From NCBI GenBank assembly GCA_002685955.1, contig NYYU01000028.1, positions 9,740-41,739 of the forward strand: a stretch of DNA of 32,000 nt, written 5' to 3'. This document shows positions 1,666 to 26,983 of the stretch, in pieces; the first letter of the stretch is position 1; every line of letters begins with the position of its first letter. A model generated the notes under the pieces. The model worked only from the letters and a program-made list of their open reading frames with translations, did not search any database and was not told the DNA's origin. Source of the DNA: Parcubacteria group bacterium. GTDB lineage: Bacteria; Patescibacteriota; Minisyncoccia; Portnoybacterales; UBA2143. The translations under genes were made by a program, and so were the position numbers.

Positions 1666-1765
1666 GCGCGAAGAAAACAGATTTTTAAATCACAGGTGTG
1701 GGCGCGCGCCCGAGCGAAGCGAGGGCAGGGATAAGTGATTTGGAAAATCTTGTTTTCGGAACGCG
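1666..1765 (+). repeat. intergenic long-hairpin repeat, copy 1 (arms 1666..1693 and 1735..1765, GC-rich apex 1694..1735)
   Basis: Left arm gcgcgaagaaaacagatttttaaatcac pairs with right arm gtgatttggaaaatcttgttttcggaacgcg. The apex aggtgtgggcgcgcgcccgagcgaagcgagggcagggataag matches 22499..22540 at 41 of 42 nt. Lies between the orphan stop (1770) and the fba start (1637). Confidence 0.85.
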
Positions 1766-4014: not shown

Positions 4015-4039
4015 AAAATTTAAATAGAAAACGATCTAA

Positions 4040-4149
4040 GTTTTGTACTCCGAAAACTAAATTTTCTGAATCGCTTAGCCCTCCTCTCGCTTCGCTCGAG
4101 CAGCACGCCCACGCCTACGATTCAAAAATTTGTTTTCTTCGTACAAAAC
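4040..4149 (-). repeat. intergenic long-hairpin repeat, copy 2 (inverted orientation, more diverged)
   Basis: Arms gttttgtactccgaaaactaaattttctgaatcg (4040..4073) and cgattcaaaaatttgttttcttcgtacaaaac (4118..4149). The reverse complement of the apex reads aggcgtgggcgtgctgctcgagcgaagcgagaggagggctaag, alignable to copies 1 and 3. Confidence 0.8.
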
Positions 4150-4158
4150 TGGAAGCGA

Positions 4159-4224
4159 TCACTTTGAATTTTCCGAGACGCGTCGGAGCCCTTTAGGGTA
4201 AAGCGCGAGGAAAATTTAAAGTGA
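4159..4224. other. second long imperfect hairpin adjacent to repeat copy 2
   Basis: tcactttgaattttcc (4159..4174) pairs with ggaaaatttaaagtga (4209..4224), 16 bp including one G-T pair. An upper 4-bp stem cgcg/cgcg carries an apical ccctttaggg. Lies 9 nt from the transketolase stop. Confidence 0.6.
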
Positions 4225-4232
4225 GAGCTTAT

Positions 4233-12409: not shown

Positions 12410-13141
12410 TTATTTATCAAAAGCTCGACTTAAAAACATGGTGAAATATCTCTCAATTTCTTTTTTGTCAGTTAACCCTTGCAAAACTTCTACCAAGCCT
12501 TTAACATTTGCTTCTTGCCTTAAACCAAAACAGCCATAACAAGGCGAACCGCCTTTAATACAAATTGACCCACACCCGCCTTGAGTAATTGGCCCTAAAC
12601 AAGGCTGGCCATTAATAATCCGACAAGGATTATTAGCTTGCTTGCATTCAAAACAAACTGAATAACCGCGATAAGCTGGTGTTTTACCAGCTAATAACTC
12701 TTGAAAAATCCTAATTAATTCATTCTCATCAATCGGACAGCCATGAATTAAAAAGTCAACTTTAACATAGGCGCTTAAAGGCAGGGCATCAATCCCCCTC
12801 GGCTTATACTCCTCCCCATAAATCTTCTTATACCATTTAGCCCGCTCTTTTTTATCTAAAATAGCTGGAATACCGCCCAAAGTGGCGCAAGCCCCTAAAG
12901 CAATTAAAACTTTTGAATCCTGCCGCAGTTTCTTTAATAAATCTACTTCATGCTGAGTAATAGGCGTCCCCTCAATAATAGTAAGATCAAAAGGGCCGGG
13001 CTTATTATCCTCTTGGCCCAAACGCCAGTTAACAATATCAATCCTTTTTTCCAAGATTAAAAGCTTCTCTCTAATAGAAACGAGTTTTACTTCACACCCC
13101 TCACAATCAGTGAAGTCATAAATAGCTACTTTTGGTACCAT
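12410..13141 (-). CDS. hydD: [NiFe] hydrogenase small (delta) subunit, group 3b-like
   Basis: ORF 12410..13171 (TTG, reads into a repeat fragment) trimmed to ATG 13141 (MVPKVAIYDFTDCEGCEV...). Cys clusters for FeS binding: GACATLGG, CPIDENE, CxxCxxxNPC. Confidence 0.85.
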   Translation of the reverse strand: MVPKVAIYDFTDCEGCEVKLVSIREKLLILEKRIDIVNWRLGQEDNKPGPFDLTIIEGTPITQHEVDLLKKLRQDSKVLIALGACATLGGIPAILDKKERAKWYKKIYGEEYKPRGIDALPLSAYVKVDFLIHGCPIDENELIRIFQELLAGKTPAYRGYSVCFECKQANNPCRIINGQPCLGPITQGGCGSICIKGGSPCYGCFGLRQEANVKGLVEVLQGLTDKKEIERYFTMFLSRAFDK

Positions 13142-13157
13142 AAATTTATAAATTTTA

Positions 13158-13197
13158 GAGCGGAGCGACAAAAATTTAGTTTTCGGAACGCAAAATT
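13158..13197 (+). repeat. truncated copy (right arm only) of the long-hairpin repeat
   Basis: gagcggagcgacaaaaatttagttttcggaacgcaaaatt aligns with the right arms of the full copies (for example cagaaaatttagttttcggagtac in copy 2 and cttgttttcggaacgcgaaaat in copy 1). No matching left arm. Confidence 0.6.
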
Positions 13198-13205
13198 AAT
13201 ATATT

Positions 13206-14027
13206 CTAGCCCCAACTTTTATCTATTTGATCATAATAAAAGACCGGGCCATCTTGGCAAACATACTTATCACCCACCACACAATGCTGGCACTTGCCAA
13301 TACCGCACTGCATCTTTCTCTCCATGCTAACAAAAATACGACGGTCAGAGATGCCTAAAGGCCTTAAAATCTTTTCCAAGGCGTCTATCATCGGACCAGG
13401 CCCGCACATGGCGGCCACCGCATCAAGTGAATCAATTTTAATTTCATCAACTAATTCAGAAACCATGCCCACATAACCTGACCAATCCTTGGCTGGCTTA
13501 TCAACCGTCAAGAGAACTTTAATTTTATCTTCCCATTGTTTTAGCTTATCTTTGATTAAAAGATCAGCCGGCGTCCGAGCGCCATAGATTAAATAAACCC
13601 GGCCGAATCTATCTCGATGAGCATTGATATATTCTATCAAGGCAGCAATAGGCGGGATGCCGCAACCCCCGGTAACCATAACTAAATCCTTGCCACTAAT
13701 AAAATCAACTGGAAAGCCATTACCATAAGGGCCTCGCATAAAAATTTCATCGCCTGCTTTTAATTGGTGCAAAGCGCTGGTCAAGATACCTGTTTTTCTG
13801 ATTATTAAATCAATGTATGAGTCCTGATAAGGCGAAGAAGCTATGCCAAAAGGCGCTTCGCCGTAACCAAAATGGCTGGCCAAAACAAACTGACCGGGCA
13901 TAAAAACTGTCCCATCTTTGTTCTTGCTAAAATCACCGACCAAGCGAAAAAGCTTGACATCCCTAGAATGTTTTTCTATCTTATCAATCTTTATTTTAAA
14001 TGGCTGATAAATGTTTTTTGTAGTCAT
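13206..14027 (-). CDS. hydG: hydrogenase gamma subunit (FAD/NAD(P)-binding, [2Fe-2S]; PyrK/sulfide dehydrogenase-like)
   Basis: ORF 13206..14033 (TTG). ATG 14027 is preceded by AAGGAG at 7 nt spacing. FNR-like fold motifs PGQF and TGGCGIPP. C-terminal CGIGKCQHCVVGDKYVCQDGPVF cluster. Confidence 0.85.
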   Translation of the reverse strand: MTTKNIYQPFKIKIDKIEKHSRDVKLFRLVGDFSKNKDGTVFMPGQFVLASHFGYGEAPFGIASSPYQDSYIDLIIRKTGILTSALHQLKAGDEIFMRGPYGNGFPVDFISGKDLVMVTGGCGIPPIAALIEYINAHRDRFGRVYLIYGARTPADLLIKDKLKQWEDKIKVLLTVDKPAKDWSGYVGMVSELVDEIKIDSLDAVAAMCGPGPMIDALEKILRPLGISDRRIFVSMERKMQCGIGKCQHCVVGDKYVCQDGPVFYYDQIDKSWG

Positions 14028-20440: not shown

Positions 20441-20467
20441 TTATTTTATTATTCTACCATATTATTT

Positions 20468-20502
20468 ATAAAAAGAAACCCCGCGTTGTTAGTTACACGG
20501 GG
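20468..20502 (-). terminator. probable rho-independent terminator after the 76-aa gene
   Basis: Stem ccccgcg/cacgggg (20479..20502, one mismatch). On the minus strand it is followed by TTTCTTTTT. Confidence 0.55.
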
Positions 20503-20517
20503 CTAGAAACTTTTAGA

Positions 20518-20748
20518 TTAAAGACAAAATCTTCCCTTCACCGCTGTCATGGTCTGTTCGCATTCTGGGCACTTCCTTTCGTTATTCAAATTTCTTTCAT
20601 TCAATAACAACTTCTGCCTACTTTTATGTTTTTTGACATTAAGACAAAGCCATCTTGTCTTTTTGCTTATCTTCCCTGAATTATTCTGCGATTTTGGCTC
20701 ACTCGGTTCAATACCCTCATCATAATAACGATCAAAATACTCTACCAT
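20518..20748 (-). CDS. small basic hypothetical protein (76 aa) with CPEC motif
   Basis: AAGGAGG SD 5 nt before ATG 20748. Has its own promoter-like and terminator-like signals. Four Cys (C35, C60, C63, C75), a possible zinc ribbon. No family recognised. Confidence 0.5.
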   Translation of the reverse strand: MVEYFDRYYDEGIEPSEPKSQNNSGKISKKTRWLCLNVKKHKSRQKLLLNERNLNNERKCPECEQTMTAVKGRFCL

Positions 20749-20810
20749 GACATCCTCCTTTTCTTATTAAGAGTTAAAGAACTAAAAAACCAATCTATTA
20801 GCTGAGTTAG

Positions 20811-20838
20811 ATTATCATAATTTCCTCTTATTCGTCAA
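20811..20838 (-). promoter_or_regulatory. sigma70-like promoter for the 76-aa gene
   Basis: Minus strand reads TTGACG (20838..20833) - 16 nt - GATAAT (20816..20811), just downstream of the tgt stop. Confidence 0.45.
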
Positions 20839-20854
20839 ACAAAGATATCCCCAG

Positions 20855-21994: not shown

Positions 21995-22450
21995 CTATTT
22001 TCTAAGATGATAACCAATAATACCAAAAGCGACTGAAATATTCAAAGATTCTTTACTGCCCAGCATCGGCAAATGAACAATCTCATCAGCTTTTTTTAAA
22101 ACGCTTTGACAAATACCTTTAATTTCATTACCGAGCACTAAAGCCAAGGGAAATTTAGGTTTAAATTTTCTATAATCCAAACTATGCTTAGTTTGCTCTA
22201 GAGCGATAATATTAACACCTTGCTTTTTTAATTTATCTATCACCCGCCAAACTTGCCCATAATGTTCCCAGGCAACATTATTCTCTGCGCCTAAAGCAGT
22301 TTTAGAAATTTTAGAATGAGGTGGCCTCCCGCAAATACCACATAAAAAAATCTTATCCACCACCAAAGCATCAGCTGTTCTGAAAATAGAGCCGATGTTT
22401 TCTAAACTGCGAATATTATCACAAATTATGTAAAAATTATGTTTTTTCAT
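21995..22450 (-). CDS. SpoU/TrmH-family RNA 2'-O-methyltransferase
   Basis: ORF 21995..22564 trimmed to ATG 22450 (MKKHNFYIICDNIRSLENIGSIFRTA...); the 38 upstream codons are a read-through of repeat copy 3. SPOUT motifs LVLGNEIKGI and IPMLG-type HLPMLGSKESLNISVA. Confidence 0.85.
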   Translation of the reverse strand: MKKHNFYIICDNIRSLENIGSIFRTADALVVDKIFLCGICGRPPHSKISKTALGAENNVAWEHYGQVWRVIDKLKKQGVNIIALEQTKHSLDYRKFKPKFPLALVLGNEIKGICQSVLKKADEIVHLPMLGSKESLNISVAFGIIGYHLRK

Positions 22451-22467
22451 CGTTTCGAAGTTTCGAA

Positions 22468-22573
22468 ATTTGTGCGAAGAAAACAGATTTTTAGATCGTA
22501 GGTGTGGACGCGCGCCCGAGCGAAGCGAGGGCAGGGATAAGCGATCTAAAAATTTTGTTTTCAAAGCACAAAT
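22468..22573 (+). repeat. intergenic long-hairpin repeat, copy 3
   Basis: Arms atttgtgcgaagaaaacagatttttagatcg and cgatctaaaaattttgttttcaaagcacaaat. Apex aggtgtggacgcgcgcccgagcgaagcgagggcagggataag. Lies 18 nt upstream of the SpoU start. Confidence 0.85.
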
Positions 22574-22581
22574 AGTAATCT

Positions 22582-22618
22582 AAAAAAATATGGCTGCCGA
22601 CTAAATTAGCCAGCAGCC
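22582..22618 (-). terminator. probable rho-independent terminator after the 118-aa gene
   Basis: Minus strand reads ggctgctggctaatttagtcggcagcc (6-7 bp GC stem) followed by atATTTTTTTa. Confidence 0.5.
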
Positions 22619-26857: not shown

Positions 26858-26973
26858 CCGCCTGAGGCGGAGGAGAAAATTTAGTGTTAAAATCTTGCAC
26901 CCGCCCAAATTTTCGCTTTGCGAAAAATTGTGGCGGGTAAGGTCTTGTTACTGAATTTTCAAAGAAAATTCAG
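26858..26973. other. three consecutive hairpins in the mreB-mutM gap
   Basis: ccgcc-tga-ggcgg (26858..26870). acccgcccaaattttcgc/gcgaaaaattgtggcgggt (26899..26938, one mismatch and one bulge). Perfect 10-bp ctgaattttc-aaa-gaaaattcag (26951..26973). Confidence 0.6.
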
Positions 26974-26983
26974 ACAAAGCCCC

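What the first reader, a model, noticed from the sequence alone, without database searches (positions are those of the whole stretch)
1666..1765. Family of ~105-nt intergenic long-hairpin repeats whose arms co-vary between copies
There are three full copies in 32 kb. 1666-1765 and 22468-22573 share one orientation and 4040-4149 is inverted; a right-arm-only fragment lies at 13158-13197. Each copy has ~28-31 nt imperfect inverted arms closing a ~42-nt GC-rich apex, in an otherwise AT-rich sequence. Where arms differ between copies, both halves change together and pairing is kept. Apex-proximal: aaatcac/gtgattt (copy 1), agatcg/cgatct (copy 3), gaatcg/cgattc (copy 2). Distal: gcgcg/cgcg, tgtgc/gcaca, tgtac/gtaca. 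That pattern is expected from selection on a folded RNA or hairpin DNA, not from passive decay of a dead insertion. All copies lie in short gaps between co-directional genes that otherwise look co-transcribed: orphan|fba, tktC|kinase, 118-aa orphan|SpoU, hydG|hydD. This resembles REP/BIME, RUP or Correia-type elements that affect mRNA processing and stability. No transposase is present in the window. The ORF track reads through the elements and produces false N-terminal extensions (21995..22564, 12410..13171).
Basis: partly seen in the sequence, partly recalled or inferred. Interest (0 to 1): 0.7.

Follow-up and report, generated by a model that had tools for sequence, protein, structure and literature searches.

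The report
Hairpin repeat family in Parcubacteria operons
A roughly 105-base repeat that folds into a long hairpin, with an almost unchanging GC-rich tip and a stem whose two halves change together, is scattered through the tightly packed operons of a group of Parcubacteria; it looks like an undescribed family of small, probably mobile, hairpin DNA, not a known RNA gene or regulator.

Summary
The window has three full copies (1667-1765 +, 22468-22573 +, 4039-4150 -), one dead remnant (13158-13197), and a distantly related second hairpin next to copy 2 (4153-4229). Public data added 12 more distinct copies, from one Parcubacteria MAG and several metagenomes. On 15 copies, 97.7% of stem cells pair and 19 of 32 pairs show compensatory changes. 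The ~42-nt apex is 94% identical between copies; the arms are 71%. No Rfam family, phage, plasmid or paper matched.

Relatives with the same operon have gaps of 1-19 nt at these sites, so the elements are insertions. Copies cluster by genome rather than by locus. I found no target-site duplication and no transposase.

All 14 variable wobble pairs lie on the G-rich strand, with no A·C. That strand is antisense to the flanking genes in 12 of 14 informative copies.

The best reading is a non-autonomous mobile hairpin element, similar in kind to REPIN, ERIC or RPE, that spreads through a single-stranded G-rich-strand intermediate. Any effect on operon mRNA would be secondary. The mobilising enzyme, and whether the intermediate is DNA or RNA, remain unknown.

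The parts
1667..1765 (+). Copy 1: full hairpin element in the hyp421|fba gap. The G-rich strand is on +, antisense to the genes. The apex loop is about 1694-1734.
   Evidence: 131.1 bits. The closest relative (73% aa identity) has only 8 nt between these genes.
4039..4150 (-). Copy 2: full element in the tktC|pfkB gap. The G-rich strand is on -, the same sense as the genes. Its apex (about 4075-4116) is the most divergent, with a CCC/GGG to CUC/GAG compensatory change.
   Evidence: (116.5 bits). Relatives have 1-16 nt in this gap. The syntenic contig L011 carries a copy in this gap in the opposite orientation.
22468..22573 (+). Copy 3: full element between an intrinsic terminator and the SpoU start codon (ATG at 22450-22448 on the - strand). 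The G-rich strand is antisense to the genes. The apex is about 22500-22540.
   Evidence: 135.9 bits. It is identical in 7 contigs of the same population.
13158..13197 (+). Decayed remnant in the gap between two group-3-type hydrogenase subunit genes. It holds an apex-core relic GAGCGGAGCGAC (13158-13169) and the right arm AAAAATTTAGTTTTCGGAACGC (13170-13193).
   Evidence: No significant fold.
4153..4229 (+). Second, distantly related hairpin directly abutting copy 2 and the tktC stop codon. It has the same base architecture (AAGC-GAU-stem ... stem-AGA-GCUU), a shorter apex (GCCC-UUUA-GGG-UAAAGCG), and a G·T wobble on the + strand.
   Evidence: -37.8 kcal/mol, z -6.8; 24.1 bits, E 0.0016. It is a single copy in all sequence held.

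Best explanation
This is an undescribed family of small non-autonomous mobile hairpin elements, of the same broad kind as REPIN, ERIC and RPE, that has colonised the very short intergenic spacers of Parcubacteria operons.

Anatomy on the G-rich strand:
- an outer stem of variable sequence, 2-10 bp;
- a conserved purine-purine internal loop (5'-GAA / 5'-GGA);
- an AT-rich co-varying stem of about 21 bp, closed by a conserved U·G;
- an almost invariant apex of about 42 nt. The apex contains the mini-hairpin CCC-GA-GC-GAA-GC-GA-GGG, which I read as tandem sheared G·A pairs plus a GNA triloop, flanked by GUAGGUGUGG and AGGGAUAAG.

Inferred mechanism: the element is copied through a single-stranded intermediate of the G-rich strand. 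A still unidentified protein recognises the folded hairpin and the sequence-specific apex. Only copies that keep both go on to leave descendants, and that would produce covariation across copies. I cannot tell whether the intermediate is ssDNA (as in HUH/Y1-type transposition) or RNA.

Insertions survive only in the few bases between a stop codon and the next start codon. They survive mostly with the weaker C-rich hairpin in the mRNA. There the element is at most a secondary modulator, for example a long double-stranded stem that RNase III could cut, or a hairpin that keeps the stop and start codons close together.

Shown here: repeat family, fold, covariation, strand asymmetry, orientation bias, derived insertion state, patchy distribution.
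Inferred: mobility mechanism, nature of the intermediate, effects on mRNA.
For: Family and structure:
- 15 distinct copies score 70.8-135.9 bits with the covariance model R1.
- 97.7% of cells pair, 19 of 32 pairs have compensatory changes, and both controls are far lower.
- Arms are 71% identical between copies and the apex 94%.

Strand:
- 37 G·T cells against 0 A·C on the G-rich strand. A naive arm-against-arm alignment gives the same picture inside the stems.
- The G-rich strand MFE is lower in all 15 copies.
- The internal loop and apex mismatches are purine-purine on this strand only.

Insertion state:
- The orthologous operon rpiB-rpe-tktN-tktC-pfkB-hyp-fba in relatives has gaps of 1-19 nt at the filled sites.
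- There are no R1 full-length hits in 130 kb of those relatives.

Mobility-like population structure:
- Copies cluster by source metagenome, not by locus. L009, L011, L021a and L021b group together, and window copy 2 is not closest to the L011 copy in the same gap.
- The same gap is filled in opposite orientations in two genomes.
- Copy 2 and the second hairpin are adjacent, and a decayed remnant exists.
- Contigs end inside the element, as expected for a repeat that breaks assemblies (L007, L024, L044).

Orientation and flanks:
- Orientation is 12 antisense to 2 sense, two-sided binomial about 0.013.
- The flanks share no promoter or terminator.

Precedent: compensatory changes are known in mobile REPINs (PMC3116915).
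Against: - No mobilising enzyme was found. No transposase domain occurs in the window, and there is no IS200/RAYT-like hit in about 400 kb held (using a query recalled from memory).
- No target-site duplication, no empty/filled polymorphism within a population (copy 3 is fixed in 7 contigs), and no near-identical copies that would show recent movement. Window copies are about 78-79% identical in the arms.
- The conservation pattern, with a conserved apex and variable ends, is the reverse of classical MITEs and REPINs and looks more like a structured RNA.
- If genes run with replication, the G-rich strand lies on the leading-strand template. IS200/IS605-type elements show the opposite arrangement (from my own knowledge of Ton-Hoang et al. 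2010).
- The sample is small (15 copies), and the copies are related, so the wobble and orientation counts are not fully independent.
Confidence: 0.55

Rival explanations
1. Host cis-acting RNA element. The hairpin is kept because, inside the polycistronic mRNA, it acts as an RNase III processing site, stabiliser, attenuator or Rho-loading site, or as a device that keeps stop and start codons adjacent for translational coupling. This is essentially the first reader's view.
For: - All copies fill the whole space between a stop codon and the next start codon. The element is 0-20 nt from the stop and 8-30 nt from the start.
- Downstream genes lack a Shine-Dalgarno site, although the genome uses GGAGG elsewhere.
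- The same operon junctions carry unrelated long hairpins in other Parcubacteria: L011 9760-9925 and 13387-13447, L035 6373-6512 and 8968-9055, and the L032 and L037 rpiB|rpe gaps.
- Copy 3 is fixed in the population.
- Both strands fold significantly.
Against: - The strand present in the mRNA is the C-rich one in 12 of 14 copies. On that strand the 37 wobble cells become A·C mismatches and the purine loops become pyrimidine mismatches. Pairing falls from 97.7% to 89.9% of cells (derived).
- Two copies are in the opposite orientation.
- A function needing only a stem does not explain an apex conserved at 94%.
- Relatives manage without any spacer.
- No U-tract follows either strand's hairpin, and the terminator scan finds nothing at the elements.
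Confidence: 0.2
2. Multi-copy small non-coding RNA gene. The G-rich strand is transcribed on its own and acts as a structured RNA with a protein-binding three-way-junction apex.
For: - The pattern is typical of RNA families: an invariant apex, co-varying stems, and G·U tolerated on one strand only.
- A variable-length hairpin is inserted at one junction in L008 2688-2855.
- In that copy, A replaces G at all three sheared positions (GAGCGAAGCGAG to CAAGCAAAGCAAG). This would be an isosteric change in RNA motifs (my own inference).
Against: - No conserved promoter lies upstream and no terminator downstream of the G-rich strand in 15 copies. The flanks are simply the ends of the neighbouring genes.
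- The copies lie within 8-30 nt of start codons on the other strand.
- No Rfam match even at E up to 10, apart from generic miRNA hairpins.
- Distribution among close relatives is patchy.
Confidence: 0.12
3. There is no selection on structure. The two arms stay complementary because quasi-palindromes correct themselves by intrastrand template switching, so the 'covariation' is a repair by-product in dead insertions.
For: Templated correction of quasi-palindromes is a known mutational process (from my own knowledge). The syntenic contig L011 holds a perfect 28-nt-arm palindrome at 13387-13447.
Against: - Self-correction would erase mismatches. Yet the GAA/GGA internal loop, the closing U·G and bulges persist in nearly all copies.
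- It predicts equal numbers of G·T and A·C intermediates; 14 against 0 are seen.
- It does not explain the conserved apex.
Confidence: 0.05

Closest known systems
REPINs / REP-BIME elements mobilised by RAYT (Y1/HUH) transposases
   Same: Intergenic elements of about 100 nt that fold into a long hairpin in ssDNA or RNA. They have no coding capacity, and compensatory changes between arms are common (PMC3116915). No target duplication. They persist and are vertically inherited rather than appearing as recent bursts.
   Different: A REPIN is two inverted REP units with invariant ends and a variable spacer. Here the ends vary and the centre is invariant. The arms are not themselves palindromes, no RAYT was found, and there is no sequence similarity.
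ERIC/IRU (enterobacteria) and Correia/NEMIS (Neisseria) elements
   Same: Imperfect palindromes of 100-150 bp inserted between co-transcribed genes in either orientation. They fold in the mRNA and can be cut by RNase III or alter transcript stability (from my own knowledge of De Gregorio et al.).
   Different: Correia elements have conserved 26-bp terminal inverted repeats and a TA duplication. Neither was seen here. There is no sequence similarity, and the strand asymmetry points away from the mRNA strand.
Rickettsia palindromic elements (RPE)
   Same: Hairpin-forming repeats of 100-150 bp spreading inside a small, AT-rich, reduced genome of a host-dependent bacterium, with no linked transposase (from my own knowledge of Ogata et al. 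2000).
   Different: RPEs often insert in frame inside genes. The copies here lie between genes; one copy (L004) may overlap a gene end. The sequences are unrelated.
GC clusters of yeast mitochondrial DNA
   Same: GC-rich, palindromic, apparently mobile modules in an AT-rich genome (from my own knowledge). A related GC-rich module (GCCCGAGGCGAGCGAAGCGAGCCGAGGGCTAAG) occurs without the AT-rich stem in other contigs (L005, L015-L017).
   Different: In the family studied here the AT-rich arms are homologous between copies, so they belong to the element.
Integron attC sites
   Same: Imperfect hairpins between co-directional genes in which only one strand folds and is recognised, and structure matters more than sequence.
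   Different: No R''/R' core sites (RYYYAAC / GTTRRRY). The flanking genes are a conserved core operon rather than cassettes. No integrase. The apex is conserved rather than variable.

Membership tests
Any Rfam 15 RNA family | Match to a curated covariance model at or near the gathering score | tested here: not met
   No hits at gathering threshold in the whole window. At E up to 10 the elements match only generic miRNA-precursor hairpins, far below gathering.
REP / REPIN | Two inverted REP units with highly conserved ends, each a short imperfect palindrome, separated by a less conserved spacer | tested here: not met
   Conservation is the reverse: apex 94%, arms 71%. The arms are not self-palindromic. 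A GTAG lies at the stem/apex junction in 13 of 15 copies, but copy 1 has ACAG and L008b has ATAC.
REP / REPIN | A RAYT (Y1 transposase) gene in the same genome | not testable with these tools
   Only fragments of the genomes are held. None was found in the window (Pfam) or in about 400 kb of loci (tblastn with an IS200 TnpA sequence recalled from memory, best E 1.4).
Classical MITE (DDE transposon derivative, e.g. Correia) | Target-site duplication flanking the element | tested here: not met
   Flanks next to the conserved ends are inverted complements (extra stem), not direct repeats. Comparing the empty site (L040) with the filled site (window) shows no duplicated target. Divergence limits how much this comparison can show.
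Classical MITE (DDE transposon derivative, e.g. Correia) | Conserved terminal inverted repeats shared with a parent IS | tested here: inconclusive
   The imperfect 11-nt ends GCGAAGAAAAC / GTTTTCGGAGC are common but variable. Similar GCTCGGAAA...TTTCCGAGC ends occur on other hairpins (L035, L037). No arms flanking a long insert were found in the loci held (344 kb).
Intrinsic (Rho-independent) terminator | GC-rich stem immediately followed by a U-tract on the transcribed strand | tested here: not met
   The terminator scan finds none at the three elements. The stem is AT-rich and no T-run follows it on either strand. True terminators of this genome look different (22592-22618).
Integron attC site | R''/L''-L'/R' organisation with GTTRRRY core, location at cassette boundaries, integrase nearby | tested here: not met
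   No GTTRRRY or RYYYAAC at the ends. The neighbours are a conserved pentose-phosphate/glycolysis operon found without the element in relatives. No integrase domain.
Structured single-stranded nucleic acid (generic) | Statistically supported covariation on one strand | tested here: met
   19 of 32 pairs have double changes, 0 of 500 shuffles reach the observed values, and slid controls give 2-5. Wobble is confined to the G-rich strand. Caveats: the alignment was fitted to the model, the sample is 15 related sequences, and R-scape was not available.
Independently transcribed sRNA gene | Own promoter and terminator, discrete transcript | tested here: inconclusive
   No shared promoter or terminator motif in the flanks of 15 copies. 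No transcript data were available.

The most novel reading that the evidence does not exclude
The G-rich strand may be a genuinely functional structured nucleic acid: an RNA or ssDNA with a conserved three-way-junction apex built from sheared G·A pairs and a GNA triloop, bound by a dedicated and still unknown Parcubacteria protein. In that reading the family is either a new type of self-propagating replicator that moves without a classical transposase, or a new multi-copy regulatory RNA placed antisense at operon junctions of CPR bacteria.
Probability: 0.2. Interest if true: 0.8.

Novelty: new variant of a known kind. Interest (0 to 1): 0.52.

Why it matters
Parcubacteria and other CPR bacteria have genomes of about 1 Mb or less that are thought to be streamlined. 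Here, core sugar-metabolism operons whose genes normally touch or overlap are split by at least three or four different families of long hairpins.

The family studied offers a clean case of strong covariation, an invariant apex and strand-specific wobble. On that basis one can ask how hairpin repeats persist and move without a visible transposase, and what they do to polycistronic expression in organisms that cannot yet be grown alone.

There are also two practical consequences. The elements break metagenome assemblies, and they create false N-terminal ORF extensions.

Tried and rejected
- Rfam at gathering and at permissive thresholds gave nothing meaningful. There are no tRNA or tmRNA genes.
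- A viral-contig pattern scan gave 0 hits. blastn against phages and plasmids gave nothing.
- A protein-database search with the peptide read through copy 3 found no candidates, so gene callers do not translate the element. An earlier attempt failed because the query was too short.
- Literature searches by topic and by literal sequence found nothing relevant.
- I looked for a parent IS, meaning arms separated by a long insert, and for solitary arms. Only the 13158-13197 remnant turned up.
- tblastn for an IS200/RAYT-type transposase found nothing.
- I searched for a promoter or terminator travelling with the element. Only chance-level consensus matches appeared, for example TTTAAA-18-TATATT partly inside copy 1.
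- Terminator reading rejected: no U-tract.
- attC reading rejected: no core sites, and the neighbours are core genes.
- Self-correcting palindrome reading rejected: conserved mismatches and one-sided wobble.
- Folding with DNA parameters does not separate the strands, so it cannot decide between DNA and RNA.
- A possible G-quadruplex in the apex and a resemblance of the UAGG/UAAG junction to a tetraloop receptor were considered but could not be tested. I make no claim for either.

Full report
**1. What is there**

The three copies are at the reported places. Copies 1 (1667-1765) and 3 (22468-22573) are direct repeats, and copy 2 (4039-4150) is inverted. The 20-nt apex core CGAGCGAAGCGAGRGVAGGG occurs 3 times against 0 in shuffles.

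Each copy folds into one long hairpin. As RNA, the G-rich strand gives -37.1, -45.4 and -44.8 kcal/mol (z -4.1, -8.1, -6.3). The complementary strand gives -30.1, -34.4 and -31.2.

All ORFs of 100 aa or more lie on the - strand. Copies 1 and 3 therefore have their G-rich strand antisense to the genes, and copy 2 has it in the sense direction.

- class-II aldolase;
- a conserved 421-aa hypothetical protein, not an orphan: 783 homologues passed E 1e-5;
- pfkB kinase;
- split transketolase;
- SpoU methylase and TGT;
- hydrogenase subunits.

The remnant at 13158-13197 keeps the right arm and a 10/12 relic of the apex core, but it no longer folds.

A second hairpin at 4153-4229 abuts copy 2. It has the same base architecture and a shorter apex, and it scores weakly with the family model (24.1 bits, E 0.0016).

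**2. The family outside the window**

One exact-pattern scan of GTDB species genomes found one true copy, in a Candidatus Parcubacteria MAG (L001). One scan of metagenome contigs found true copies in L004, L008 (two copies), L009, L010 (identical to L012), L011, L013, L014, L018 and L021 (two copies). It also recovered L007, which is the window itself.

The other hits share only the GAGCGAAGCGAG motif. The window organism is a marine 'Parcubacteria group bacterium' MAG found in Tara Oceans assemblies.

No hits came from viral contigs, phage records or plasmids.

**3. Structure and covariation**

An alignment of 13 copies gave an RNAalifold consensus of 32 pairs, 15 of them with compensatory changes. 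A covariance model (R1) recovered 15 distinct copies at 70.8-135.9 bits.

On the model alignment:
- 97.7% of cells form standard pairs;
- 19 of 32 pairs have changes on both sides;
- no shuffle out of 500 reaches any observed measure;
- sliding the partners by 1-3 columns drops pairing to 32-53% and double changes to 2-5.

The alignment is fitted to the model, which inflates pairing somewhat. The effect is nevertheless large, and it is visible by eye. For example, L014 keeps the apex while its arms read AAAAATGCAAAT/ATTTGCATTTTT instead of GAAAACAAAT/ATTTGTTTTC.

The arms are 71% identical on average and the apex 94%.

Within the apex, the mini-hairpin CCC-GA-GC-GAA-GC-GA-GGG is supported by two co-varying pairs (CG to UA, GC to AU). 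The rest of the apex is too invariant to test.

A conserved purine-purine internal loop (5'-GAA against 5'-GGA) sits near the base. One copy (L008 2688-2855) carries an extra 48-nt GC-rich hairpin in the apex. In that copy A replaces G at all three G·A/GAA positions.

**4. Which strand**

On the G-rich strand the paired columns hold 37 G·T cells and no A·C or C·A cells. Fourteen of the G·T cells lie outside two conserved U·G positions. A naive arm-against-arm alignment shows the same inside the stems.

The G-rich strand folds better in all 15 copies. Its internal-loop and apex mismatches are purine-purine, which can stack. On the other strand they are pyrimidine-pyrimidine.

Deamination bias on the exposed sense strand would predict the opposite asymmetry (my reasoning). 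The simplest reading is selection on the folded G-rich strand. Folding with DNA parameters does not distinguish the strands, so DNA against RNA stays open.

GCGAAGC is, to my knowledge, a classic unusually stable DNA mini-hairpin, and C-GA-G is the favoured context for tandem sheared G·A pairs. This is a lead towards ssDNA, not a test.

**5. Orientation and position**

Among 14 copies with clear co-directional neighbours, the G-rich strand is antisense to the genes in 12 and sense in 2 (window copy 2 and L009). The two-sided binomial probability is about 0.013.

The copies fill the whole spacer. One end is 0-20 nt from the upstream stop codon and the other is 8-30 nt from the downstream start codon.

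No promoter or terminator motif is shared by the flanks. The genome has ordinary intrinsic terminators and GGAGG ribosome-binding sites elsewhere. One such terminator lies between the 118-aa gene and copy 3.

**6. Insertions, not ancestral spacers**

The operon rpiB-rpe-tktN-tktC-pfkB-hyp-fba is conserved in many Parcubacteria. In relatives at 64-73% protein identity:
- the tktC|pfkB gap is 1-16 nt;
- the hyp|fba gap is 2-19 nt, and 8 nt in the closest relative, L040.

In the window these gaps are 218 and 132 nt and consist of the elements. The 130 kb of relatives hold no full copy, and L040/L041 hold none either.

A more distant syntenic contig (L011, about 70% nucleotide identity) does carry a copy in the tktC|pfkB gap. 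It is in the opposite orientation and belongs to a different subgroup. In the hyp|fba gap L011 carries an unrelated perfect palindrome.

Copies group by source metagenome rather than by locus. Copy 3 is identical in 7 population contigs. Several contigs end inside an element.

No target-site duplication can be seen.

**7. Mobiliser**

No transposase, integrase or reverse-transcriptase domain occurs in the window. No IS200/RAYT-like sequence occurs in about 400 kb of held loci (the query was recalled from memory, so this is weak evidence).

**8. Interpretation**

The data fit a non-autonomous mobile hairpin element whose propagating form is the folded G-rich strand. The apex would be the sequence-specific recognition part and the stem a purely structural requirement. 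Selection among copies for continued propagation is enough to explain covariation, and the same is reported for REPINs (PMC3116915).

The orientation bias may come from the insertion mechanism. It may instead arise because the stronger G-rich hairpin, which also carries Shine-Dalgarno-like AGGUG and GAGGG runs, is less tolerated in an mRNA. Effects on the operon transcript are plausible but secondary.

I give this reading 0.55. The rivals are:
- host cis-RNA function, 0.2;
- an independent ncRNA gene, 0.12;
- palindrome self-correction, 0.05.

**9. Comparison with known systems**

It works like REPIN/BIME, ERIC, Correia and RPE elements, but it fails the tested defining features of each. Conservation is centred on the apex rather than the ends. 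There is no TSD, no shared sequence and no RAYT. It is also not an attC site, not a terminator and not an Rfam family.

I found no description of it in the literature. I therefore rate it a new variant within the known class of bacterial hairpin repeats.

**10. Limits**

- The analysis rests on fifteen related copies and a model-fitted alignment.
- There is no complete genome, no transcript data and no replication-direction information.
- R-scape was not available.
- The collection scans used an exact pattern. Divergent copies were missed, so the family's true spread is unknown.

Noticed in passing
window 4153-4229 (+): A second long hairpin lies directly between copy 2 and the tktC stop codon. 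Its arms are CACTTTGAATTTTCC/GGAAAATTTAAAGTG and its apex is GCCC-TTTA-GGG-TAAAGCG. It is a weak relative of the family (24.1 bits) and a single copy in all sequence held.
   Followed up: partly
window 22583-22618 (-): A canonical intrinsic terminator (12-bp GC-rich stem plus a U7 run) lies right after the 118-aa gene and just upstream of copy 3. SpoU-TGT would therefore need a promoter inside or beyond the element, or read-through. None was identified.
   Followed up: partly
window 26899-26981: Two adjacent strong hairpins lie in the fpg|mreB gap: ACCCGCC...GGCGGGT with a CGC-AAA-GCG tip, and CTGAATTTTC...GAAAATTCAG. Together they give -41 kcal/mol, z -7. They are identical in population contigs and are not family members.
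   Followed up: partly
L011 9760-9840 and 13387-13447; L011 9840-9925: The syntenic Parcubacteria contig carries another hairpin-repeat family with conserved arms (AAGGACAGTCCTTAAAAT...) and different apexes, in the tktN|tktC and hyp|fba gaps. It also carries a third long hairpin whose arms resemble those of the family studied (…TTTAAGAATCGTC…) but whose apex is different.
   Followed up: partly
L035 6373-6512 and 8968-9055; L037 5560-5715; L032 740-990: Relatives that lack the family carry other long or nested hairpins at the same operon junctions (rpiB|rpe, tktC|pfkB). One has a CCGAGCAAAGCGAGG tip and GCTCGGAAA...TTTCCGAGC ends. Another has GTCATTGCGAG...CTCGCAATGAC ends. The same gaps appear to have been colonised repeatedly.
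   Followed up: partly
L008 2688-2855: A 168-nt variant copy with an extra 48-nt GC-rich hairpin inserted in the apex. It has A in place of G at all three sheared positions (CAAGCAAAGCAAG instead of GAGCGAAGCGAG).
   Followed up: partly
L005 6734-6897 (also L015, L016, L017): A GC-rich module, GCCCGAGGCGAGCGAAGCGAGCCGAGGGCTAAG, related to the apex mini-hairpin, sits without the AT-rich stem. It lies inside what looks like the 5' end of a signal-peptide gene, and a 12-nt direct repeat (ATTTTAATTCTT) lies on either side of the segment.
   Followed up: no
L007 position 1 (= window 4090); L024 end; L044 start: Public contigs of this organism end inside copies 2 and 3, as expected for a repeat that breaks short-read assemblies.
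   Followed up: yes
L011 10918-10945: A 12-nt tandem duplication (AGCTATTGCTCA twice) lies at the outer end of the L011 copy, next to the tktC stop codon.
   Followed up: no
window 20441-20854 (-): The largest gap in the window holds a small gene with a GGAGG ribosome-binding site and a CxxC motif (…KCPECEQT…). Public annotation calls it at 76 aa. A canonical terminator follows it.
   Followed up: no
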